Sequence record: OZ035795.1
From: Krischvirus LF73P4
Reading direction: 5' to 3' (one strand)
Length of the DNA stretch: 64,000 nt
The notes under the pieces: model-generated
What the model was told of the DNA's origin: nothing
The model's input: only the letters and a program-made list of their open reading frames with translations
The model's database searches: none
Translations under genes and position numbers: made by a program
Shown here: piece after piece, positions 4,098 through 56,051 of the stretch
Position numbering within the stretch: the first letter of the stretch is position 1
How the letters are laid out: every line of letters begins with the position of its first letter

Positions 4098-4126
4098 AGT
4101 ATAGGGGATCGGTGATCCCCTGTCAA
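4098..4126 (-). promoter_or_regulatory. sigma70-type early promoter (PeSL-like)
   Basis: minus strand TTGACA (4121-4126), palindromic spacer GGGGATCACCGATCCCC, TATACT (4098-4103). Confidence 0.7.
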
Positions 4127-5258: not shown

Positions 5259-5288
5259 ATTATAGGGGAGTTTAACCTCCCCTGTCAA
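5259..5288 (-). promoter_or_regulatory. sigma70-type early promoter (PeSL-like)
   Basis: minus strand TTGACA (5283-5288), palindromic 18-nt spacer, TATAAT (5259-5264). Confidence 0.65.
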
Positions 5289-5296
5289 CAACTTTT

Positions 5297-5608
5297 TTAA
5301 AGTTTTTCCATGATAACGGTCATAATTACATCTTCTGCGCGAGCGGTCAGATTATCAGCGTCAGCATGTGGGCGGTTGGTTGTTACAGAGATAACACCGT
5401 TGCGCACTGGTTTGATATTGATATCAAGATGATCCGCGAAACGTTCGCCAGTTACAGAATGAATTTTGGTGTTAAATTCTTTTGCCAGTGCCTTGCGAAC
5501 TTCACGAATCAGGGTAGCGTTTTTCAGTTGGTTCTCCGCGCTCATGGTCTTCTGAGTGTTCATGGTTCCGTCGAAGTCAATCATTGGCAGCGTTACGATG
5601 TATTTCAT
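5297..5608 (-). CDS. hypothetical protein (103 aa); paralog of 1978..2265
   Basis: ATG 5606-5608 with SD1; AKEFN segment shared. Confidence 0.6.
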   Translation of the reverse strand: MKYIVTLPMIDFDGTMNTQKTMSAENQLKNATLIREVRKALAKEFNTKIHSVTGERFADHLDINIKPVRNGVISVTTNRPHADADNLTARAEDVIMTVIMEKL

Positions 5609-5651
5609 TTTTGATTCTCCTTAAGAAAGTGTGTTTCGTTTTGATGTGTGT

Positions 5652-5680
5652 AGTATAGGGGATCACCGATCCCCTGTCAA
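5652..5680 (-). promoter_or_regulatory. sigma70-type early promoter (PeSL-like)
   Basis: minus strand TTGACA (5675-5680), palindromic spacer, TATACT (5652-5657). Confidence 0.7.
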
Positions 5681-5688
5681 CAACTTTT

Positions 5689-6018
5689 TTATGATTTTAG
5701 TGAATTAACCACTACATCAAAATGATGTACAGAGCACACCTTATTAAACACATATTCATCGTGTTTAGGAATAGCCCCTAATCGCTCGATTTCGCTCGCT
5801 GACACGATAAACCGTTTATCAGGTGCATTTACCTTATATGCTTCAACAACGCACGGAAAACGCGTTTTAGAGAGTTCGGGATAGTTTTCTGACTCCATCA
5901 GGACAATGAATACCCTATTACATTGATTGTAGAATCCGGTTTTTGATTTCATCAAGTTTTCTTCTCTGTGAAATTCGTGCAATCTTCCTTTCATGATTTC
6001 GTTGGTTCTTGTCTTCAC
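5689..6018 (-). CDS. hypothetical protein; start uncertain (possible internal ATG at 5994 or 5952)
   Basis: ORF track; last gene of an overlapping operon. Confidence 0.45.
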   Translation of the reverse strand: MKTRTNEIMKGRLHEFHREENLMKSKTGFYNQCNRVFIVLMESENYPELSKTRFPCVVEAYKVNAPDKRFIVSASEIERLGAIPKHDEYVFNKVCSVHHFDVVVNSLKS

Positions 6019-10320: not shown

Positions 10321-10917
10321 TTATTTGGTAGTACCGTCAATAAAATGTTTACGGCACACAGAAACATATTTATCCTCTGCACCAACTTCGATTTGAGCAC
10401 CATCGCGAATAACATTACCCTCTTTATCTACACGAAGGACCATTGTTGCTTTCTTGCCACAATGACAAATACCCTTCATTTCGACCAGTTTATCAGCAAA
10501 TGCCATTAATGCCGCAGATCCTTCAAATAGATTGCCCTGAAAGTCAGTGCGAAGGCCATAGCACAGTACAGGGATATTAGCATCATCAACAAGCGCACAC
10601 AAGCCTAAAACATGCTCTTTAGTCATAAATTGGGCTTCATCTACAAATACTGCATCTGGACGCCATCGATCCGGTCTACGCTTACCTAACGATTCACGAT
10701 AAACCAAATCGAAAAGATCATCCGATTTAGTGAAGGTGATCGCTGGGGCACTTAGGCCAATTCGGGAAACGACTTCACTTTCTGAATCTCGATTATCAAT
10801 CGCTGGCTTAAGAATTAATACTCGCATATCACGTTCGGTATAGTTATAAGCACTTTGTAACAGAGAAGTTGATTTGCCAGCGTTCATAGATGCATAGTAG
10901 AAATATAATTGCGCCAT
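10321..10917 (-). CDS. tdk: thymidine kinase
   Basis: MAQLYFYYASMNAGKST P-loop, LCYGLRTDF and VSVCRKH segments closely match E. coli Tdk as recalled. Confidence 0.95.
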   Translation of the reverse strand: MAQLYFYYASMNAGKSTSLLQSAYNYTERDMRVLILKPAIDNRDSESEVVSRIGLSAPAITFTKSDDLFDLVYRESLGKRRPDRWRPDAVFVDEAQFMTKEHVLGLCALVDDANIPVLCYGLRTDFQGNLFEGSAALMAFADKLVEMKGICHCGKKATMVLRVDKEGNVIRDGAQIEVGAEDKYVSVCRKHFIDGTTK

Positions 10918-11210
10918 TAATTAATCTCCAAAAATCCAACAAGGCCTAAACCGATATAAGTCCAGATACCAATGAAAAAGATGTTAATGCTCATGGCAAG
11001 GATAAACCCTTTCAGAGTTTTGGGATACCCGACCCAATATTCCCGACCATCTTCTAACCGGATCAACTTATTGCCTTGCGAGTCCATATCAACTACAACA
11101 TGTTTATTTCGAGATTGCAATAGATATTGTTTTACAATCTCTACACCCGCCATAATAACAATAACGAAAATAAAAGTCCACACAACAAGATTAATGATAG
11201 TCTCAAGCAT
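10917..11210 (-). CDS. hypothetical membrane protein (97 aa)
   Basis: two hydrophobic segments; SD GGAGGTGATAGAAA-ATG; stop overlaps tdk start. Confidence 0.55.
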   Translation of the reverse strand: MLETIINLVVWTFIFVIVIMAGVEIVKQYLLQSRNKHVVVDMDSQGNKLIRLEDGREYWVGYPKTLKGFILAMSINIFFIGIWTYIGLGLVGFLEIN

Positions 11211-11418
11211 TTTCTATCACCTCCACCCAATCAGGTGTTTCCTGAAAGACTCCTTCACCTTCATGATGGTCGCAACCTTTATTGCTACAGTACATCCACC
11301 AATCCCACATTCCCCACGGTAAACGCTGCATATCGTCGTTACAGCAAGTGAAGATGATAGGCCAACCACATCTACCACATCGGCAGTTTTCCTTCATGTG
11401 TGCGCTATTAGGCTTCAT
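11203..11418 (-). CDS. hypothetical Cys-rich protein (start adjusted)
   Basis: CRCGRCGW ... CC ... C..H.H cysteine cluster; ORF track 11203..11457. Confidence 0.45.
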   Translation of the reverse strand: MKPNSAHMKENCRCGRCGWPIIFTCCNDDMQRLPWGMWDWWMYCSNKGCDHHEGEGVFQETPDWVEVIENA

Positions 11419-11863
11419 ATTCAACCACCACAATATTGATATCCGGCGTAAAATCATTAATAATTTCTTCTACGCATTCCCACTCAAGACCGCCAATCCC
11501 ACAACCAATTTTAGGAATATAGAACGGCTTAACAGTACCTTCAAATGCGGAGTTAAGTTGTTCGAATCCACGGATGATAGCGGAATATTCAGCATTTGGT
11601 CCTGGACGGAATTGCGTATAAAGATTAATACCCATCCAGTTATAACCATTAACGGTATGATGCCAAACATTAAACTCGCCTAGCTTACTCGCCGTTCCTC
11701 TCGGTGTCTTTTTGTCAGTAGCCAATGCTTGCGGGAACTCTTTCGCGATCTTCGCAGCAATACCAGCACCCATAGTATGAAAACAATTACAACCATGAAT
11801 TAAATGACCGTTTCCTTGTTTAAACAGGGCGATGAGATCGCCCTTTACAGTATCAATAATCAT
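11408..11863 (-). CDS. macro-domain protein (ADP-ribose binding/processing)
   Basis: HGCNCFHTMGAGIAAKI and IGCGIGGL motifs typical of macro domains; SD2 context. Confidence 0.75.
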   Translation of the reverse strand: MIIDTVKGDLIALFKQGNGHLIHGCNCFHTMGAGIAAKIAKEFPQALATDKKTPRGTASKLGEFNVWHHTVNGYNWMGINLYTQFRPGPNAEYSAIIRGFEQLNSAFEGTVKPFYIPKIGCGIGGLEWECVEEIINDFTPDINIVVVEYEA

Positions 11864-11878
11864 AATATAAACCTCTCA

Positions 11879-12238
11879 TTAGTCACGGGAAGACAACCCA
11901 GCCATAAAACGGCTTAACAGTGTGTCGCGATAAGCAAAGCATAATTGCTTATCAGGGGCAGTATCACAAAGGTTGCGTTTTGTTTTAGCAAAGCTGGCAA
12001 TACTCAGATCCCACGCTCGATTTTTTCGTTTTTCATCTCGACCTTGTTTGTATGCTTCATCAAGTTCGAGCGCGATAAAATCACTACACATGTTATCATC
12101 ATCACAGAAAGTTTTAATGATCTTTTTGTTGATCTCAAATCCTTTGTATTCGAACTTTGGATAAGGGCGCTCATTACTAGCAAGCGCACCAGCCGAGAAC
12201 ATCATAGCAATCATAGCAATTATTGTCAACTTTTTCAT
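11879..12238 (-). CDS. hypothetical secreted/periplasmic protein (119 aa)
   Basis: signal-peptide-like N-terminus MKKLTIIAMIAMMFSAGALA; several Cys. Confidence 0.55.
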   Translation of the reverse strand: MKKLTIIAMIAMMFSAGALASNERPYPKFEYKGFEINKKIIKTFCDDDNMCSDFIALELDEAYKQGRDEKRKNRAWDLSIASFAKTKRNLCDTAPDKQLCFAYRDTLLSRFMAGLSSRD

Positions 12239-13349: not shown

Positions 13350-13685
13350 TTATCCTTTCTTAAACAAATTGCGAAGCCAGTATACAAACGGGATTTCTTT
13401 AAACTTGAACTTGTCAATAGTTAATTCTTTAGTAGCAAGATGAATACCATAAGCATCATGTGTAACTATATGCCATTTTCTATAGTCCAAATGTGAACAA
13501 CCGTCTGGATCTAGGTTAATAAGAGTTTCTCGCTCACTAGAATTATTTTTCCACAATTTTGTAATAGGATCGCACATAATTCGACCTAGCGTACCATGAA
13601 TAATCTCACAACGGTAAAGTTTTCCAGCAGTGAGATAGGCGCACCCGTCATAGTCGGTATAAACAAACACTTCTTTAACACTCAT
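13350..13685 (-). CDS. hypothetical protein, CSHL-motif family paralog (start adjusted)
   Basis: SD1 and promoter 13717-13745; motif DPDGCSHLDYRKW shared with two upstream ORFs. Confidence 0.5.
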   Translation of the reverse strand: MSVKEVFVYTDYDGCAYLTAGKLYRCEIIHGTLGRIMCDPITKLWKNNSSERETLINLDPDGCSHLDYRKWHIVTHDAYGIHLATKELTIDKFKFKEIPFVYWLRNLFKKG

Positions 13686-13716
13686 TTTAATACTCCTTTG
13701 TTGTTTCGATGGGGGT

Positions 13717-13745
13717 ATATTACTACCCCCGATCATGGGTGTCAA
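13717..13745 (-). promoter_or_regulatory. sigma70-type early promoter (PeSL-like)
   Basis: minus strand TTGACA (13740-13745), 17-nt spacer, TAATAT (13717-13722); GGGGGTA/TACCCCC palindrome. Confidence 0.65.
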
Positions 13746-13991
13746 CTACTTTTTCAAGATTTTTTTGAGTGCATTCCAAAGACCTTTATTCCCAGGTTGT
13801 TTTGGTTCTTCGATCAGTGTCCATGTTCGACCGTCTAAGTGTGCACAATTTTTAAGACAAATAAAAATCTGGTGTCCCTTATCATCACGGATATAACCAC
13901 TATTCGCAAATCTTTCATGTGGTGTATATTCATACAGTGTATTAGGTGTAATATACTTGCGGTTACTATAAGGTGTCATCACATACATCAT
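13746..13991 (-). CDS. hypothetical protein, CSHL-motif family paralog
   Basis: motif NCAHLDGRTW; ATGA overlap with upstream gene. Confidence 0.5.
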   Translation of the reverse strand: MMYVMTPYSNRKYITPNTLYEYTPHERFANSGYIRDDKGHQIFICLKNCAHLDGRTWTLIEEPKQPGNKGLWNALKKILKK

Positions 13992-14182
13992 GGTACTAAC
14001 TCCCAACGATCACCGCGAAGATGAGAACATCTACCATCAAGAAGTATTGTAATACGATAACCTATATCATCTTTGATGTAACCGATTGTCGGTGGATTTT
14101 CGTCGTCTCGTGCCGGGGTAAAATCATACATCTTTCCGGGCGTAATATCTTGTCCTTTATTGCTATTGGTATAAACTTGCAT
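13988..14182 (-). CDS. hypothetical protein, CSHL-motif family paralog
   Basis: motif GRCSHLRGDRW; SD AGGAGATTAAGAAA-ATG. Confidence 0.5.
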   Translation of the reverse strand: MQVYTNSNKGQDITPGKMYDFTPARDDENPPTIGYIKDDIGYRITILLDGRCSHLRGDRWELVP

Positions 14183-14203: not shown

Positions 14204-14902
14204 CTAACCACGGGTATAGTGTTCCAGAACAACTGTCAGATGAATATATTCTAATAGATCTTTCCAAAAGTCAACATCTGGTTCTTCCGGCATACCGTTT
14301 TTCTTTGCCTCTTCACGCGAGAGTTTAACACGCTCGTAGAGATCTTTCAATTCTTCCCGCACATTATCAAAGGTTCTTTCTCCTAACTTACACGCTAAAA
14401 TAGAAGAACGTCGCGCGAGCGGGAATTGTAGATCACCTGTCTGATAGATTTCAAGTAGCTGATAACCAACACGCAGAGCATGAGAAAGATCTTTCCAGTT
14501 ACTGAAATACTTTTCAGATTTGGCTACCTGCTTTTTGAGATAGCCAGACAAACCCCACATACCAACATGATAGAATTTATCTCGATGTGTTCGGATGTAT
14601 TCCCATTCTCTGGAGGATTCAATCAACATGTTACTAGGAGCGTGCACCATGTCAATAGCGCCGATATCGCCTTTACATGCCAGATTGATAAACCGTTTTA
14701 GACTGAACATATTAACATCAATATCGTCTTTGGTGTTCTTGATACCTTGACCGCTAGTGCTTTGGTCATAGTGTTCTTTCATAGATCCTAAGATAATTTC
14801 TTTCGCAGTCGGAACAAAGATACCACGATAATCTTTATCTGAATTTTCAGTATCAAGGCCGTACAAGTGAGATCCGAAGACCATTTTAACCATTGTATGC
14901 AT
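14204..14902 (-). CDS. predicted nucleotidyltransferase (Pol-beta superfamily fold)
   Basis: N-terminal GSHLYGLDTENSDKD matches GS-x3-G-x5-SD-x-D minimal nucleotidyltransferase signature. Confidence 0.6.
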   Translation of the reverse strand: MHTMVKMVFGSHLYGLDTENSDKDYRGIFVPTAKEIILGSMKEHYDQSTSGQGIKNTKDDIDVNMFSLKRFINLACKGDIGAIDMVHAPSNMLIESSREWEYIRTHRDKFYHVGMWGLSGYLKKQVAKSEKYFSNWKDLSHALRVGYQLLEIYQTGDLQFPLARRSSILACKLGERTFDNVREELKDLYERVKLSREEAKKNGMPEEPDVDFWKDLLEYIHLTVVLEHYTRG

Positions 14903-14920
14903 AATTAAACCCTCAGTTGA

Positions 14921-15514
14921 TTAAACGTATTCAGCAACAACATTATGTTTAAAATTACCGCTCCTTTTTGGATTTGGATTTTTCAATCGACTATGTATTA
15001 AATTTTTGTTGTATCCGGTTGCTTTAGACGCTTCGCCAATACTTTGATAAACAACACCATTAACACGAATCGGACGAGACTTATTAAACAGTTTATTCAA
15101 TCCGGCATCATATGCATGGTTTTGGTTTTCTTGCCTCGTTGCGATCTCAAGATTCCAAACACAATTACAAGATTTTACCCCACTTTTATGATTAATTTCA
15201 AGACCTTCACAATCACCTATAAAGTGTTCAGCAACTAGTCTATGAATATAGCTATATTTCTTACTTTCCCCATCATGCAAGCATACATTATAATAACCAT
15301 CACCAGCGCGTTTAGGTCGGAGTAGTTTACCTTTAACACGTTTTATAGTAGGGAACTCACCAAATTGATTTCTCTGGATAAACGGAATCTCGCGGTCTAA
15401 TGAACGGATTCGACCATAGTTAGACACTTGATAAAAACTTTCATATCCTTTAATTGGCTTCCATATCTCAGGGATTTCTACACCATCAATAACAACAAGT
15501 TTAAATTCTTCCAT
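14921..15514 (-). CDS. HNH homing endonuclease
   Basis: NUMOD4-like YQVSNYGRIRS, HNH core HRLVAEHF ... EINHK ... N..NLE; sits directly after grcA terminator without own promoter. Confidence 0.8.
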   Translation of the reverse strand: MEEFKLVVIDGVEIPEIWKPIKGYESFYQVSNYGRIRSLDREIPFIQRNQFGEFPTIKRVKGKLLRPKRAGDGYYNVCLHDGESKKYSYIHRLVAEHFIGDCEGLEINHKSGVKSCNCVWNLEIATRQENQNHAYDAGLNKLFNKSRPIRVNGVVYQSIGEASKATGYNKNLIHSRLKNPNPKRSGNFKHNVVAEYV

Positions 15515-24715: not shown

Positions 24716-24856
24716 TACTGATTCCTCAAATGAAAATATTTATTAACAATTGTCGCTTTGCGACGTGCCGGAGGCACTGACTACTTTTTAACCGAAACAA
24801 ATTTTCTATTATTCTAAAGATCTTTCTTCGTTTTGGTTATGTTTTAACCAACTGTA

Positions 24857-48290: not shown

Positions 48291-48455
48291 ATGAAAACTA
48301 TGAATGTAAACATCCACGAAATCCATACCGAAGTATTCACCGAAGAAGACCAGTTTGGTGTATGGGTAAATCCTCATTCGATTACTATCGATATTCCTAA
48401 TGACGATTATGATCCGTTCTCTCTGATTAGCGAGATTAGTTTCAATGACTTCTGA
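48291..48455 (+). CDS. hypothetical protein (54 aa); not in ORF track
   Basis: ATG 48291 after AAGGAATTTTATT; acidic. Confidence 0.4.
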   Translation: MKTMNVNIHEIHTEVFTEEDQFGVWVNPHSITIDIPNDDYDPFSLISEISFNDF

Positions 48456-48924
48456 AATTGATATCTATGCGGGTGGACCTTATCCATCGGGTGAATTGAG
48501 CAATTTCAATAAAAGACCATTCCGTCTATTTGGTTGCGATATTAACAGCACAGAAGGATTTTTACAGGGGCTAAGATTTAAGAACCCTCAGAGACAAAGA
48601 GAAATCTTTTTGATGCACGGTGGCAAAGCAAAAAGAACCGGAAGAACTGAAAAGATTGAGAATCACATGTTATATTTTCAGGGTCGCCCGATTCATCGAA
48701 TGAGTGAGCATTATTACAGACTGGTACATCTGGCATTTGTTACGATGGCACGGAATAACCCAGAATTTTGTAAAGCATTACTCGCTACCGGAAATAAGAA
48801 ATTGCGTCATAGCATAGGTGGAACTGATCCGTTAAAGACTATATTGACTGAATCGGAATTTTGTAGTATCCTCAATGATATTCGTGAACGTTTAACAAAA
48901 CGAGGTGAAAATGTCAATTCTTAA
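48445..48924 (+). CDS. NADAR-domain protein (YbiA-like, ADP-ribose processing)
   Basis: GELSNFNKRPF, STEGFLQGLRF and LLATGNKKL segments match NADAR family hallmarks. Confidence 0.65.
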   Translation: MTSEIDIYAGGPYPSGELSNFNKRPFRLFGCDINSTEGFLQGLRFKNPQRQREIFLMHGGKAKRTGRTEKIENHMLYFQGRPIHRMSEHYYRLVHLAFVTMARNNPEFCKALLATGNKKLRHSIGGTDPLKTILTESEFCSILNDIRERLTKRGENVNS

Positions 48925-50407
48925 TATCATTAATCAGCTTGCAGCGACCGACAAAACATCGCTGAAAGAAAAGATCCTGAAAGAATCCGCAAGCAATGAA
49001 ACTCTGAAAGAATGCTTTTATCTGGCATATTGCAAACAGGTTACGTTTGGCGTAAAGAAATACGATAAACCATCTCGCTATTCGTCTGTATTGTCTTTAT
49101 CCGGTGCATTGCAGGTCTTTAAAAATAAACTTGCCACGCGTCAAGTAACTGGTAACGCAGCATTACAGCTAGTTACCGATACTCTGACTTGCTTGTCAGA
49201 AGATGATGCTAAAGTTGCAATGATGGTCCTGAATCGTGATCTGGAATGTGGTTGTTCCGCTACTACTGCAAACAAGGTATGGAAGAAACTGATCCCCCAG
49301 CAGCCGTGCCACCTTGCATCGTCATGTTCTGATAAGACTATTGCTAATATCAAGTATCCGGCGTATGCACAACTTAAAAGCGATGGCGCTCGTGGTATGG
49401 CTGATATTGACGGGGAAACATTAGCAATCTATACCCGCTCAGGTAATACCTATCAAGGACTTGATGATTTGTTTGCGGTTTTAGAGCGTCTACGAGGCCG
49501 TGGAATTGTTCTAGATGGCGAATTGGTATATATGCCTACCCTTTCGCAAACACCAGCGCAGAACTTCGTTGAAAGCGTTTATGATGGTACTCTGTCATGG
49601 ATATTTGAAGAAGAGGAAATGCCATTAACGCCAGTAGCGGAAGCAGTGAAAGAATCCGTTGTTGCAGATCGTCAGACCGGAAATGGTATCCTCAACAAAT
49701 CACTTAAAGGAACTATTCCAAAAGAAGAAGCCCAATGTATTGTTTATACTGTCTGGGATGTTATCGACCGTGATGTGTATTACGGAAATGAGAAAGCAAC
49801 GAAGCAATATAAAGATCGATTCGAAGAACTAAAACAGATTGTTGAAGAACTTAACGATCCTCGTGTTCAGATAATCGAAAACACTGTAGTTAACAATATA
49901 GATGAAGCTCGCGAAGTATATCATCGCTATGTAAACATGGGCTTAGAAGGTATTATCCTTAAAAATTTACATGGTGTATTTGAAGATCGCCGTAGTAAAG
50001 ATCAGGTTAAATTTAAAGAAGTGATTGACTTCGACGCGGAAATTGTTGATGTATATCCGCATAGTAAAGACCCCAATAAGGTAGGCGGTTTTACTGTCCG
50101 TAGTGCGTGCGGACGAATGATGACTAACACCGGATCGGGATTGACCGACACCACAACCGAAAAAGGCGATGATGGTATTGAACGTGTGATTCCGTTTGAC
50201 CGTCGAAATGAACTTGACCGAGAAATGTTATGGGCTGACCGTCATAACCTGATTGGAAAAGTTATTGAGATGACATGCAACGGGTATATCCGCAGCAAAT
50301 CACGTAAAGAAGATGAACCGGAGTTCTCTTTATTTCTCCCAATCATCAAACGTATTCGCTACGACAAGACCACTGCAAATACAGTAAAAGAGGTATTCGA
50401 TGTGTGA
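48911..50407 (+). CDS. 30: ATP-dependent DNA ligase (T4 gp30-like)
   Basis: N-terminus and KYPAYAQLKSDGAR (KxDG), EGIILKN, C-terminal IRYDKT match T4 DNA ligase; start adjusted to ATG 48911. Confidence 0.9.
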   Translation: MSILNIINQLAATDKTSLKEKILKESASNETLKECFYLAYCKQVTFGVKKYDKPSRYSSVLSLSGALQVFKNKLATRQVTGNAALQLVTDTLTCLSEDDAKVAMMVLNRDLECGCSATTANKVWKKLIPQQPCHLASSCSDKTIANIKYPAYAQLKSDGARGMADIDGETLAIYTRSGNTYQGLDDLFAVLERLRGRGIVLDGELVYMPTLSQTPAQNFVESVYDGTLSWIFEEEEMPLTPVAEAVKESVVADRQTGNGILNKSLKGTIPKEEAQCIVYTVWDVIDRDVYYGNEKATKQYKDRFEELKQIVEELNDPRVQIIENTVVNNIDEAREVYHRYVNMGLEGIILKNLHGVFEDRRSKDQVKFKEVIDFDAEIVDVYPHSKDPNKVGGFTVRSACGRMMTNTGSGLTDTTTEKGDDGIERVIPFDRRNELDREMLWADRHNLIGKVIEMTCNGYIRSKSRKEDEPEFSLFLPIIKRIRYDKTTANTVKEVFDV

Positions 50408-51225: not shown

Positions 51226-51238
51226 TTCAAAAAAGTTG

Positions 51239-51267
51239 TTGACAGGGGATCACGTATCCCCTATACT
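51239..51267 (+). promoter_or_regulatory. sigma70-type early promoter (PeSL-like)
   Basis: TTGACA (51239-51244), palindromic spacer GGGGATCACGTATCCCC, TATACT (51262-51267). Confidence 0.7.
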
Positions 51268-51309
51268 ACACACATCAAAACGAAACACACTTTCTTAAGG
51301 AGAATCAAA

Positions 51310-51588
51310 ATGAGCAACCTGTCTTTCGCTAAAGTAGAAATTTCTAAAACTCGCGGTGGCTTTAAAATCAAAACTTCCAATATCACTTCCTGCCGTGGTT
51401 GCGTCCGGTTTGCGTTCGACTTGGCAGCGAAGCTGGGTATTAAAACCTTTACCGTTGAGAGCGGATCTAACTGGACCACTCTGATTGTTACTGCCGCTTG
51501 GATTAATGGCGAGTATGTGGAAAAAGCATACTTTGACATTTTCTATGACTATGAAGAAAAATGCTTTTATGCACTGCAAGACATGTAA
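51310..51588 (+). CDS. hypothetical protein (92 aa)
   Basis: SD1 context. Confidence 0.55.
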   Translation: MSNLSFAKVEISKTRGGFKIKTSNITSCRGCVRFAFDLAAKLGIKTFTVESGSNWTTLIVTAAWINGEYVEKAYFDIFYDYEEKCFYALQDM

Positions 51589-51598
51589 GGAGGATAAC

Positions 51599-51907
51599 GT
51601 GACAACACAAGATATTGTTAATGTGCTTTATATCTGGACTACTGGTGCAATGATCTCGTATCTAGTATTCTGCTTGTACGCCAGATTCGACAAGGACACC
51701 AAAGAGGTCGATACAGGAGCATTTTGTATTGCTGCAATCGTATGGCCTATAACGTGGACCGTGGTTGATATTGTTATGTGTTATAAAGGATTGAAATGTT
51801 TTGGTTTGATGATTGCTGGTAAACCGGAAGCGAAGCCGCGCAAGCATAAAGGATTTACTCCAAAACAAGAAGACGACGGTCGATATAAACCGGAAGAAGA
51901 TTTTTAA
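51599..51907 (+). CDS. hypothetical membrane protein (GTG start after AAGGAGGA)
   Basis: strong SD 5 nt upstream of GTG; hydrophobic helices; ORF track 51485..51907. Confidence 0.4.
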   Translation: MTTQDIVNVLYIWTTGAMISYLVFCLYARFDKDTKEVDTGAFCIAAIVWPITWTVVDIVMCYKGLKCFGLMIAGKPEAKPRKHKGFTPKQEDDGRYKPEEDF

Positions 51908-55197: not shown

Positions 55198-55470
55198 ATG
55201 CGTAAGATGTTTAAAGCTGGTGTGGCCTATGTTTTTAAATCTGAGCAAGCACGTAAAGACTTCTTAGAGGACGACTACGAAGGTCTGAAAGATACCTACG
55301 AAGCAATCAAGAATGGATTTACTGTTCTTAAAGTGTCACCTATTGGTTATGTAAGTGAAATCTCGGTTGATGGGAAAACCTACACCGCTAAAGACTTTGA
55401 TCCGCGTTGGGAATTTATGCTGCTTCCATGTGACCGCATTCTGTTTCGTGCTGTTCAATTAGTGAAATGA
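55198..55470 (+). CDS. hypothetical protein, GFxVL/KDF family member (start adjusted)
   Basis: SD1-like AAGGAGAATCAACA-ATG; shares NGFTVLKV segment with following genes. Confidence 0.5.
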   Translation: MRKMFKAGVAYVFKSEQARKDFLEDDYEGLKDTYEAIKNGFTVLKVSPIGYVSEISVDGKTYTAKDFDPRWEFMLLPCDRILFRAVQLVK

Positions 55471-55484
55471 TAGAGGATTATATT

Positions 55485-56051
55485 ATGGTACAGAAAACGT
55501 ATAAATTGTATCCGGCTAAGTCTTCAAATGATGCTGTTTTTGAACGAGGTCGTTATTACACTTTCCGTAATGCTGAGTCCGCAGTGGAATTTGTTAAACG
55601 CTATCCACAACATAACAAATTCCTGCATGATGTGCTTCGCAATGGCTTTAAAGTTCTGACGGTTAATGTTATGGGTAAAGTGTATTTGGTAGAAACTCAT
55701 GATTATGAGGGCGCGTCAATAATGATTGATGCAAGCGAGCGAAAATACTTTAAACGCATCACTAAAAAGCAGTTTGAAGAAATGAAACCAGTTAAGAAAG
55801 AAGAATCTCTGGAAGACCTGATTAACTTGTTTGCGAAGTCTTCTTTGGTGTCATTGACGCTGGAAGATTTTAGCTTTGATAATCAGCTATACTTTAAAAA
55901 TGCAGATGACTTGAAAGATTTTCTGATTGAGAATAAACCTAAGCTAGAAACCTATATCAAAGGTGAGCTTAAGCGCATGGAACATCAAGCAAAATATAGC
56001 GCCGATAAAGTAGCTGAACTGAAAGAGATCCAAAAGTCATTTAACGCTTGA
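55485..56051 (+). CDS. hypothetical protein, GFKVL/ERKYFKRI family member
   Basis: exact SD2 context; RNGFKVLTV and ERKYFKRITK segments. Confidence 0.5.
   Translation: MVQKTYKLYPAKSSNDAVFERGRYYTFRNAESAVEFVKRYPQHNKFLHDVLRNGFKVLTVNVMGKVYLVETHDYEGASIMIDASERKYFKRITKKQFEEMKPVKKEESLEDLINLFAKSSLVSLTLEDFSFDNQLYFKNADDLKDFLIENKPKLETYIKGELKRMEHQAKYSADKVAELKEIQKSFNA

What the first reader, a model, noticed from the sequence alone, without database searches (positions are those of the whole stretch)
11408..11863. Phage-encoded macro domain protein
A stand-alone 151-aa macro domain (HGCNCFHTMGAGIAAKI, IGCGIGGL) in the early region. Macro domains bind or hydrolyse ADP-ribose and its derivatives. In a phage this suggests reversal of host ADP-ribosylation-based defence (DarT-type DNA modification), interference with ADP-ribose-derived immune signals, or tuning of the phage's own ADP-ribosyltransferases.
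Basis: partly seen in the sequence, partly recalled or inferred. Interest (0 to 1): 0.7.

Follow-up and report, generated by a model that had tools for sequence, protein, structure and literature searches.

The report
Phage Tk.4/AdfM macrodomain, anti-DarT2 enzyme
This is the RB49-like phage's copy of the T4 gene tk.4 (recently renamed adfM), a small macrodomain enzyme that most likely strips ADP-ribose off phage DNA to defeat the bacterial DarTG2 defence; the gene family and its role are already described, so the finding is correct but ordinary.

Summary

T4 tk.4 was named AdfM in a 2025 preprint: its knockout sensitises T4 to DarTG2. PhiKZ AdfM was shown in 2026 to remove DarT2-made ADP-ribose from ssDNA.

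Two refinements:
- The Tk.4 subfamily has Gln, not Lys, at the DarG/TARG1 catalytic position (115 of 116 homologs). This matches SCO6735, a Lys-independent thymidine-ADPr DNA hydrolase.
- The 3' two-thirds of the gene is a recombined, divergent allele (about 75% nt identity inside roughly 100%-identical flanks). It is under purifying selection (dN/dS 0.14) and is absent from GenBank phages.

The tk.4 A1pp/macro match has been published since 2006. Verdict: already known, low interest.

The parts
11408..11863 (-). tk.4 / adfM ortholog CDS: 151-aa stand-alone macrodomain (stop codon included).
11872..11877 (-). Shine-Dalgarno GAGAGG, 8 nt upstream of the ATG and immediately after the vs stop codon (11879-11881). 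Indicates tight operon coupling to vs.
   Evidence: Read directly from the sequence.
11786..11797 (-). Codons H23-G24-C25-N26 (HGCN motif). N26 corresponds to SCO6735 Asn27 and PhiKZ AdfM Asn23. G24 corresponds to the backbone position of SCO6735 Val25.
   Evidence: N26 and G24 are invariant in 116/116 homologs and H23 is present in 112/116. Alignment A4. Mutational data for the equivalent residues in PMC9411070 and PMC13309987.
11612..11617 (-). Codons T83-Q84. Gln84 occupies the position of the catalytic Lys80 of DarG and Lys84 of TARG1, and equals Gln85 of SCO6735.
   Evidence: HMMER alignments to 5e3b and 5m3i. MAFFT alignment A4. hhalign 98.3% probability with Q aligned to Q. Q in 115/116 homologs.
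11489..11506 (-). Codons G120-C-G-I-G-G125: the glycine-rich diphosphate-binding loop. G124 occupies the position of TARG1 Asp125.
   Evidence: G120 and G122 are invariant and G125 is present in 113/116. Alignment A4.
11408..11753 (-). Divergent allele patch covering codons ~37-151. It is ~75% nt identical to all 58 GenBank Krischviruses, while both flanks are ~98-100% identical to JSE.
   Evidence: Pairwise alignment A1. Distant blastn gives at most 75.5%. Codons 44-151 have dS 1.44 and dN/dS 0.14, against dS 0.04 for codons 1-43. Three-way sliding identity. Allele seen only in metagenome assemblies (P0001 99%, P0002 93%).
11206..11418 (-). Downstream small ORF (71 aa, Phage_zn_bind) whose start overlaps the tk.4 stop by 11 nt. 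In JSE a further 64-aa ORF (EpJSE_00092, Phage_zn_bind_2) lies between the two genes; in the window it is precisely absent, ATG to ATG.
   Evidence: L003 retains the extra ORF.
11879..12238 (-). vs (valyl-tRNA synthetase modifier), immediately upstream. Synteny anchor for the tk.4 orthology.
   Evidence: PHROG 1256 E 1.8e-33. JSE and T4 annotation.
10321..10917 (-). tk (thymidine kinase). Downstream synteny anchor.

Best explanation
The ORF is the Krischvirus ortholog of T4 tk.4 (adfM, anti-DarT factor macrodomain). It is made early in infection as part of the regB-vs.1-vs-tk.4 gene string.

Proposed mechanism:
1. When a host DarTG2 system releases DarT2, the toxin ADP-ribosylates thymidines in TNTC motifs on single-stranded phage DNA and blocks replication.
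2. The macrodomain binds the ADP-ribose moiety in its Gly-rich cleft (GAG 32-34; G120-x-G122-x-x-G125).
3. It hydrolyses the thymine-N3-ribose bond. This releases free ADP-ribose and restores normal DNA, so the protein acts as an orphan antitoxin.

Catalysis is probably not DarG/TARG1-like, because there is no Lys at the catalytic position. It is more likely SCO6735-like: Gln84, held by Asn26, positions the distal ribose, and a backbone-bound water starts the reaction.

What is shown here: fold, class, active-site residues, orthology, and purifying selection. What is shown in the literature for relatives: the anti-DarTG2 phenotype of T4 tk.4, and dT-ADPr hydrolysis by PhiKZ AdfM and by SCO6735. 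What is inferred: that this protein has the same substrate and the Gln-type chemistry.
For: Fold and class:
- Macro fold with very high confidence.
- Best sequence hit in PDB is SCO6735.
- NCBIfam and PADLOC DarG models match over the macro part only.

Orthology to T4 Tk.4:
- Same gene order.
- 43% identity, E 2.7e-39, sole hit in the window.
- Same PHROG.

Literature on relatives:
- T4 tk.4 knockout is sensitised to DarTG2.
- PhiKZ AdfM removes DarT2-made ADPr from ssDNA, and the Asn mutant is impaired.
- SCO6735 cleaves dT-ADPr with an essential Gln85/Asn27.

Active site and selection:
- Gln84, Asn26 and the Gly loop are near-invariant across 116 homologs. Q84 aligns to Q85.
- The divergent allele is under purifying selection (dN/dS 0.14), and its substitutions fall at permissive sites. 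The gene is therefore functional.

Context:
- The same window carries the gp30.3/AdfN-family gene, the anti-DarTG1 counterpart in T4 (PMC11825919).
Against: - No enzymology or genetics exists for this protein or for any Krischvirus.
- For T4 Tk.4 only the phenotype is published (as a preprint). Hydrolysis is assumed, not shown.
- Identity to T4 Tk.4 is only 43%, and to the biochemically tested PhiKZ AdfM only 28%.
- The catalytic Lys of DarG/TARG1 is absent.
- The DNA-binding Lys34 and the extended Lys89 loop of SCO6735 are also absent (Ala33; no 5-residue insertion). DNA recognition therefore cannot be copied from either model.
Confidence: 0.72

Rival explanations
1. Small-molecule NAD-metabolite enzyme. 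The protein would be an ADP-ribose-1''-phosphate phosphatase (this is the basis of the database label 'phosphatase', Poa1p-like) or an O-acetyl-ADP-ribose deacetylase. It would clear by-products of tRNA repair/splicing or of sirtuin-type reactions rather than acting on DNA.
Against: The annotation derives only from the old A1pp domain name. The only phenotype known for an ortholog is DarTG2-specific. T4-type tRNA repair (Pnk/Rnl) does not generate Appr>p or Appr-1''-p (established knowledge of the pathway). The central part of Poa1p did not align by sequence.
Confidence: 0.1
2. Nucleic-acid de-ADP-ribosylase with a different or broader main substrate than DarT2-modified DNA. Examples are uracil-linked ADP-ribose on RNA, or the product of a still unknown host nucleic-acid ADP-ribosyltransferase.
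For: SCO6735, TARG1 and DarG all also reverse uracil-ADPr on ssRNA, and SCO6735 does so efficiently (PMC13036486). The subfamily is very widespread: 2742 of 50,697 phage records across many genera. It also occurs as stand-alone genes in bacteria without DarT. This hints at a target more common than DarTG2.
Against: No bacterial uracil-RNA ADP-ribosylating defence is known. The T4 screen gave tk.4 as the single hit specifically under DarTG2. T4 remains sensitive to the adenine-RNA ADP-ribosylating CmdTAC system (PMC11618068), so Tk.4 does not reverse that modification.
Confidence: 0.1
3. Eraser of protein ADP-ribosylation. It would either tune or reverse the marks laid by the phage's own transferases (Alt, ModA/ModB, and a second ART in JSE), or remove marks placed by host ARTs.
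For: Krischviruses encode alt, a second ART and modB. SCO6735 and TARG1 remove Glu/Asp-linked mono-ADPr from proteins.
Against: Alt and Mod enzymes modify arginine, a linkage that TARG1-class macrodomains are not known to cleave (established knowledge; ARH/DraG-type enzymes do this). Homologs are common in phage groups outside the T4-like phages, including Vequintavirinae, Felixounavirus, Ackermannviridae-size phages and Pseudomonas phages; whether those groups carry Alt/Mod homologs was not checked here. No phenotype points this way.
Confidence: 0.05
4. Mainly a stoichiometric inhibitor or decoy. It would bind DarT2, or sequester an ADP-ribose-derived signal such as Thoeris gcADPR, without needing catalysis.
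For: Catalytically dead SCO6735 (Q85A), DarG (K80A) and TARG1 (K84A) still inhibit DarT in vitro, and SCO6735 does so most strongly. The allele replacement at surface-permissive sites could reflect co-evolution with a protein partner.
Confidence: 0.05

Closest known systems
T4 Tk.4 = AdfM (anti-DarT factor macrodomain), bioRxiv 10.1101/2025.11.20.689424
   Same: Ortholog. Same position between vs and tk, same size (151 vs 155 aa), 43% identity, same PHROG 335. Same HGCNC...NLYTQF.PGPN...IG.GIG signature, including Gln at the DarG-Lys position.
   Different: Different genus (Krischvirus vs Tequatrovirus) and 57% of residues differ. No phenotype has been tested. Even for T4 Tk.4, only genetics is published, not enzymology.
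JSE/RB49 Tk.4 (annotated 'phosphatase; contains A1pp phosphatase motif')
   Same: Same gene in the same genus. The first 47 residues are identical (the first 110 nt are identical at DNA level), and the flanking DNA is ~98-100% identical.
   Different: Residues 48-151 belong to a different allele: 27 substitutions, ~75% nt identity, dS 1.44. The adjacent 64-aa ORF of JSE is missing.
SCO6735 of Streptomyces coelicolor (PDB 5E3B; PMC9411070)
   Same: Best PDB sequence hit. Stand-alone ALC1/TARG1-class macrodomain. Gln at the catalytic-Lys position, with the conserved Asn and Gly partners. Documented thymidine-ADPr DNA hydrolase that protects from DarT.
   Different: About 26% identity. Lacks SCO6735's 5-residue longer mobile loop with Lys89, and lacks Lys34 (Ala33 here). 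SCO6735 is a bacterial DNA-damage-induced gene, not a phage gene.
DarG antitoxin macrodomain (Mtb 5M3I, T. aquaticus 5M31/5M3E; NCBIfam NF048014)
   Different: No catalytic Lys80 (Gln84 instead). No C-terminal DarT-binding domain (151 aa vs ~340). No adjacent darT. Scores 53 bits against the 250-bit equivalog cutoff.
PhiKZ gp104 AdfM (PMC13309987)
   Same: Phage-encoded stand-alone macrodomain used as an orphan anti-DarT2 antitoxin. Conserved Asn (N23 there, N26 here).
   Different: Only 28% identity. PhiKZ AdfM is a true DarG-type enzyme with FPTK Lys, E 9e-25 to DarG. It is imported into a phage nucleus. The two 'AdfM' proteins belong to different subfamilies.
Human TARG1/OARD1 and yeast Poa1p
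   Same: Closest Foldseek hits (E 1e-10) with the same compact ~150-aa macro fold. TARG1 cleaves thymidine-ADPr.
   Different: Poa1p is a phosphatase acting on Appr-1''-p.

Membership tests
Macro domain (Pfam PF01661) | Profile match above the curated gathering score over the whole domain. | tested here: met
   28.3 bits against a cutoff of 22, profile positions 1-118 of 118.
Macro domain (Pfam PF01661) | Three-layer alpha/beta/alpha macro fold with Gly-rich ADP-ribose-binding loops. | tested here: met
ALC1/TARG1-like macrodomain class (TARG1, DarG, SCO6735, Poa1p) | Closest structural and sequence neighbours are members of this class rather than MacroD, PARG or viral X-domains. | tested here: met
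T4 Tk.4 / AdfM orthologous group | Conserved genomic position between vs and tk in a T4-like early cluster. | tested here: met
   Gene order regB-vs.1-vs-tk.4-(small ORFs)-tk-rI in the window, JSE and T4.
T4 Tk.4 / AdfM orthologous group | Sequence homology over the full length, as the unique best match. | tested here: met
   tblastn of T4 Tk.4 against the window gives a single hit: 43% identity over 153 aa, E 2.7e-39. PHROG 335 E 2.5e-62.
T4 Tk.4 / AdfM orthologous group | Protects the phage from DarTG2 (loss of the gene sensitises). | not testable with these tools
   Known only for T4. Needs phage genetics.
DarG antitoxin (NCBIfam NF048014 equivalog) | Score at or above the equivalog cutoff; two-domain architecture with a C-terminal DarT-binding domain. 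| tested here: not met
   53.4 bits against a cutoff of 250. Only model positions 2-144 of 338 are matched, and the protein is 151 aa.
DarG antitoxin (NCBIfam NF048014 equivalog) | Catalytic Lys80 in the FPTK motif. | tested here: not met
   Gln84 (YTQF) aligns with Lys80.
DarG antitoxin (NCBIfam NF048014 equivalog) | Encoded next to a darT toxin gene. | tested here: not met
   The neighbours are vs and a small zinc-binding protein. No DarT-like ORF is nearby.
TARG1/OARD1 | Lys84/Asp125 catalytic dyad. | tested here: not met
   Gln84 and Gly124 occupy these positions.
SCO6735-type (Lys-independent) dT-ADPr hydrolases | Gln at the catalytic-Lys position, with the stabilising Asn (Asn27) and the conserved Gly (Gly128). 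| tested here: met
   Q84 aligns to Q85 by HMMER, MAFFT and hhalign. N26 is invariant and the Gly loop is invariant.
SCO6735-type (Lys-independent) dT-ADPr hydrolases | Extended mobile loop with Lys89, and Lys34, for DNA binding. | tested here: not met
   The 5-residue insertion 'GMKTG' is absent, and Ala33 replaces Lys34.
SCO6735-type (Lys-independent) dT-ADPr hydrolases | Hydrolysis of thymidine-linked ADP-ribose on ssDNA. | not testable with these tools
   Requires an enzyme assay.
Poa1p-type ADP-ribose-1''-phosphate phosphatase | His23 and Ser30 active-site residues, and phosphatase activity. | tested here: inconclusive
   H23 is conserved, and T30 occupies the Ser30 position in the N-terminal HMMER alignment. 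The central region did not align, the Poa1p structure paper was not available, and the activity is untestable here.

The most novel reading that the evidence does not exclude
The Tk.4-type AdfM proteins, including this one, form a distinct, very widespread subfamily of phage and bacterial stand-alone macrodomains, found in about 5% of sequenced phages. They would reverse base-linked nucleic-acid ADP-ribosylation by a Lys-independent, Gln/Asn-plus-water mechanism. This would have been reached independently of the DarG-type AdfM of PhiKZ.

On this reading, the cassette-like allele replacement seen in near-identical Krischvirus backbones reflects selection to match different host toxins, or to evade DarT2 variants or inhibitors, rather than neutral recombination. 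The alleles might then differ in specificity, for example DNA-T versus RNA-U, or different DarT2 clades.
Probability: 0.25. Interest if true: 0.45.

Novelty: already known. Interest (0 to 1): 0.2.

Why it matters
[quoted passage not shown] This gene shows that RB49-like therapeutic-type coliphages carry the macrodomain eraser (Tk.4/AdfM). In the same window they also carry the gp30.3/AdfN-family NADAR eraser, so they are probably armed against both DarTG2 and DarTG1.

Two points go beyond the literature:
- The Tk.4 branch uses Gln rather than the DarG/TARG1 lysine. Its chemistry should therefore be modelled on SCO6735, and DarG-directed inhibitors or lysine-based mutants would be the wrong tools.
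- The gene exists as exchangeable alleles within one genus.

Both points are incremental. They sharpen experiments rather than open a new question.

Tried and rejected
- DarG membership: rejected. The score is below cutoff, there is no C-terminal domain, no darT neighbour and no Lys80.
- TARG1-type Lys/Asp dyad: rejected.
- The idea that the divergent 3' part is a decaying or rapidly evolving pseudogene: rejected. The frame is intact, dN/dS is 0.14 with saturated dS, and the changes lie at permissive sites.
- The idea that the allele came from Vequintavirinae-type phages, the next-closest group at ~67% aa: not supported. No GenBank phage matches the patch at more than 75.5% nt. The closest alleles (99%, 93%, 91% aa) are in metagenomic Krischvirus-context contigs.
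- Looking for a toxin partner or prophage context of a bacterial family member (P0077): none found.
- Promoter and terminator consensus scan around the gene: only a weak excess (24 against 15.4 +/- 4.3). No assignable promoter directly upstream of tk.4.
- Poa1p catalytic comparison: the structural paper is not in the library, so this was left inconclusive.
It was repeated without them.
- Junction searches for the window's unusual gene order in IMG/VR: zero hits. Controls show only one comparable genome there, so the result is uninformative.

Full report
**Observation**

A GAGAGG ribosome-binding site lies 8 nt upstream, directly after the stop codon of the preceding gene.
- Pfam Macro (PF01661) matches end to end at 28.3 bits (gathering score 22).
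- PHROG 335 ('phosphatase') matches at E 2.5e-62.
- The NCBIfam and PADLOC DarG models match, but only over their N-terminal macro part: 53 bits against a 250-bit equivalog cutoff.

The only addition is that the gene is on the minus strand.

**Genomic identity**

The surrounding 5.5 kb is 96-97.5% identical to 58 RB49/JSE-like coliphages, genus Krischvirus, Straboviridae.
- In JSE the corresponding gene is annotated 'tk.4; contains A1pp phosphatase motif'.
- Gene order in the window is regB, vs.1 (SLT domain), vs, tk.4, small zinc-binding ORFs, tk, rI, rI.-1. This is the same as in JSE and in T4.
- T4 Tk.4 finds exactly one match in the window, this ORF: 43% identity, E 2.7e-39.

The ORF is therefore the ortholog of T4 tk.4. 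Homologs occur in 2742 of 50,697 phage records across many genera. The A1pp/macro match of tk.4 orthologs, RB49 included, was already reported in 2006 (PMC1524935).

**What is known about the family**

- T4 Tk.4. A transposon-sequencing study of T4 found tk.4 as the single gene specifically required in the presence of DarTG2. A clean knockout confirmed this, and the gene was renamed adfM (anti-DarT factor macrodomain). Hydrolysis was proposed, not demonstrated (bioRxiv 10.1101/2025.11.20.689424).
- PhiKZ gp104. A 2026 paper gave the same name to this protein. It showed in vitro removal of ADP-ribose from DarT2-modified TNTC ssDNA, impairment by an Asn23Ala mutation, and rescue of DarT2 toxicity (PMC13309987).
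- AdfN. The NADAR protein AdfN (T4 gp30.3) plays the parallel role against DarTG1 (PMC11825919).

**Structure and class**

An AlphaFold2 model built on 116 homologs is very confident: pLDDT 96.4, pTM 0.91.
- Foldseek gives TARG1, Poa1p, DarG and SCO6735.
- By sequence, the best solved relative is SCO6735.

The protein thus belongs to the ALC1/TARG1-like class. This is the class that contains every macrodomain known to cleave thymidine-linked ADP-ribose.

**Active site**

Alignments by HMMER, MAFFT and hhalign agree.
- The catalytic lysine of DarG (Lys80, FPTK) and TARG1 (Lys84) is replaced by Gln84 (NLYTQF). This is also true in JSE, T4 and Vequintavirus Tk.4.
- TARG1's Asp125 position is Gly124.
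- PhiKZ AdfM, in contrast, keeps the DarG lysine and is a much closer DarG relative (E 9e-25). It is only 28% identical to the window protein.
- Across 116 homologs, Gln84 is present in 115. Asn26, Gly24, Gly34, Gly120 and Gly122 are present in all. His23 is present in 112.

This is the SCO6735 configuration.
- In SCO6735, Gln85 sits at the lysine position and is essential.
- Asn27 locks it in place, and N27S is nearly dead.
- Gly128 matters.
- A backbone-positioned water is proposed to start the reaction.
- The enzyme cleaves dT-ADPr on ssDNA and protects cells from DarT (PMC9411070).

The window protein differs from SCO6735 in two ways: it lacks the 5-residue longer mobile loop with Lys89, and it lacks Lys34 (Ala33). 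How it grips DNA therefore cannot be read from either model. The literature treats T4 Tk.4 simply as 'DarG-like'. The Gln-for-Lys difference is a modest refinement made here.

**Allele mosaic**

The flanks and the first 110 nt of the gene are identical to JSE. The rest of the gene (window ~11408-11753) is only ~75% identical to every GenBank Krischvirus, and the best protein identity there is 84%.
- For codons 44-151, dS is 1.44 (saturated) and dN/dS is 0.14. For codons 1-43, dS is 0.04.
- The 27 amino-acid differences fall at positions that are variable across the family: mean entropy 3.22 against 1.86 bits.
- The same allele (99%) and intermediate ones (93%, 91%) occur in metagenome assemblies. 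One 15-kb Krischvirus contig carries a third, itself mosaic, allele.

This is homologous replacement by an old, functional allele. It is not decay, and there is no evidence of positive selection. Immediately downstream, a 64-aa zinc-binding ORF present in JSE and in that contig is missing precisely from ATG to ATG.

**Mechanism proposed**

The gene is expressed early with vs and regB. Early expression is established for the T4 cluster and was not tested here; the promoter scan was uninformative. When DarT2 ADP-ribosylates thymidines in TNTC motifs on single-stranded phage DNA, the macrodomain binds the ADP-ribose and hydrolyses the base-ribose bond. It thereby acts as an orphan antitoxin, probably by the Gln/Asn-assisted, Lys-independent route.

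Confidence is about 0.7. It is limited by the lack of any assay on this protein and by the purely genetic evidence for T4 Tk.4.

**Rival explanations**

- A Poa1p-like ADP-ribose-1''-phosphate phosphatase or OAADPr deacetylase role. This is supported by structural similarity and the shared HxCNC motif, but the 'phosphatase' label is only a legacy of the A1pp domain name.
- A broader or different nucleic-acid substrate, such as uracil-ADPr RNA, which SCO6735, TARG1 and DarG also cleave (PMC13036486).
- Erasing protein ADP-ribosylation by the phage's own Alt/Mod enzymes. This is unlikely: those marks are arginine-linked, and homologs are common in phage groups outside the T4-like phages.
- Non-catalytic inhibition of DarT2 or signal sequestration. 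This is disfavoured by the near-invariant catalytic residues.

A stand-alone bacterial member of the subfamily has neither a DarT neighbour nor a prophage context.

**Verdict**

Novelty: already known. It is a new allele, plus a mechanistic nuance. Interest is low (0.2).

**Side observations**

- The window also encodes the gp30.3/AdfN-family protein at 48445-48921 (PF08010, 132 bits).
- The window is not collinear with JSE. It reads as JSE 121.2-127.0 kb (+), 44.9-65.6 kb (+), 152.5-127.0 kb (-), 45.0-31.4 kb (-).
- Two junctions lie in copies of an ~85-nt early-promoter/stem-loop cassette, TTGACA-GGGGATC...GATCCCC-TATACT. This is the 'PeSL' element known to mediate shuffling in RB49-like phages (PMC2839356). 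The third junction lies in a ~108-nt repeat.
- Whether this is a genuine rearrangement or an assembly artefact could not be decided.

Noticed in passing
window 1-64000; junctions at ~5605-5690, ~24743-24851 and ~51229-51313: The window is not collinear with phage JSE (nor, judging from relative strand and position of the two blocks compared, with RB49 or FL04). It maps as JSE 121.2-127.0 kb (+), 44.9-65.6 kb (+), 152.5-127.0 kb (-), 45.0-31.4 kb (-). This equals two nested inversions between short repeats. Gene 3 ends up next to long-tail-fibre genes 35/34, which are separated from 36/37. It could be a real repeat-mediated rearrangement or an assembly mis-join at repeats.
   Followed up: partly
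window 4100-4126 (-), 5261-5288 (-), 5654-5680 (-), 51239-51265 (+): There are four copies of a composite early promoter/stem-loop cassette: TTGACA, a GGGG...CCCC hairpin in the spacer, then TATA(C/A)T, followed by AAGGAG and an ATG. None is expected by chance. These are the PeSL mobile regulatory cassettes described for RB49/phi1 (PMC2839356). Two of them form the rearrangement junctions J1 and J3.
   Followed up: partly
window 48445-48924 (+): This is the ortholog of T4 gp30.3 (Pfam Phage_30_3, 132 bits), the NADAR-family anti-DarTG1 factor AdfN in T4. It lies just upstream of DNA ligase gp30 (48905-50407). The window therefore carries family members of both published anti-DarT erasers.
   Followed up: partly
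window ~11416-11418, compared with JSE 51589-51783: A 195-bp ORF (64 aa, Phage_zn_bind_2) lies between tk.4 and the next zinc-binding ORF in JSE and in a metagenomic Krischvirus contig (L003). In the window it is deleted exactly from start codon to start codon.
   Followed up: partly
window 13353-14182 (-): Three consecutive small ORFs (111, 86 and 64 aa) all hit the same PHROGs (6261 / 15978). They appear to be a tandem paralog family of unknown function between regB and the nrdC.11-like nucleotidyltransferase.
   Followed up: no
window ~14900-15500 and ~18700-19000: These segments have no detectable similarity to JSE, within an otherwise 92-98% identical backbone. The first replaces JSE's homing-endonuclease gene (55282-55812) with a different 197-aa ORF (14921-15514). 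Such gene swaps are typical of a hyperplastic region.
   Followed up: no
window 12201-12229 (-): This is the best sigma-70 consensus match of the region: TTGACA, 17 nt, TG-TATGAT (11 of 12). It lies inside the first codons of vs and points towards tk.4. It could be an internal early promoter or a chance match in AT-rich DNA.
   Followed up: no
L010 6001-6459 (Pelagimonas phthalicica chromosome): A 43%-identical member of the Gln-type Tk.4 subfamily is a stand-alone chromosomal gene among housekeeping-type neighbours, with no DarT and no prophage. Bacteria therefore also keep orphan copies of this eraser.
   Followed up: partly
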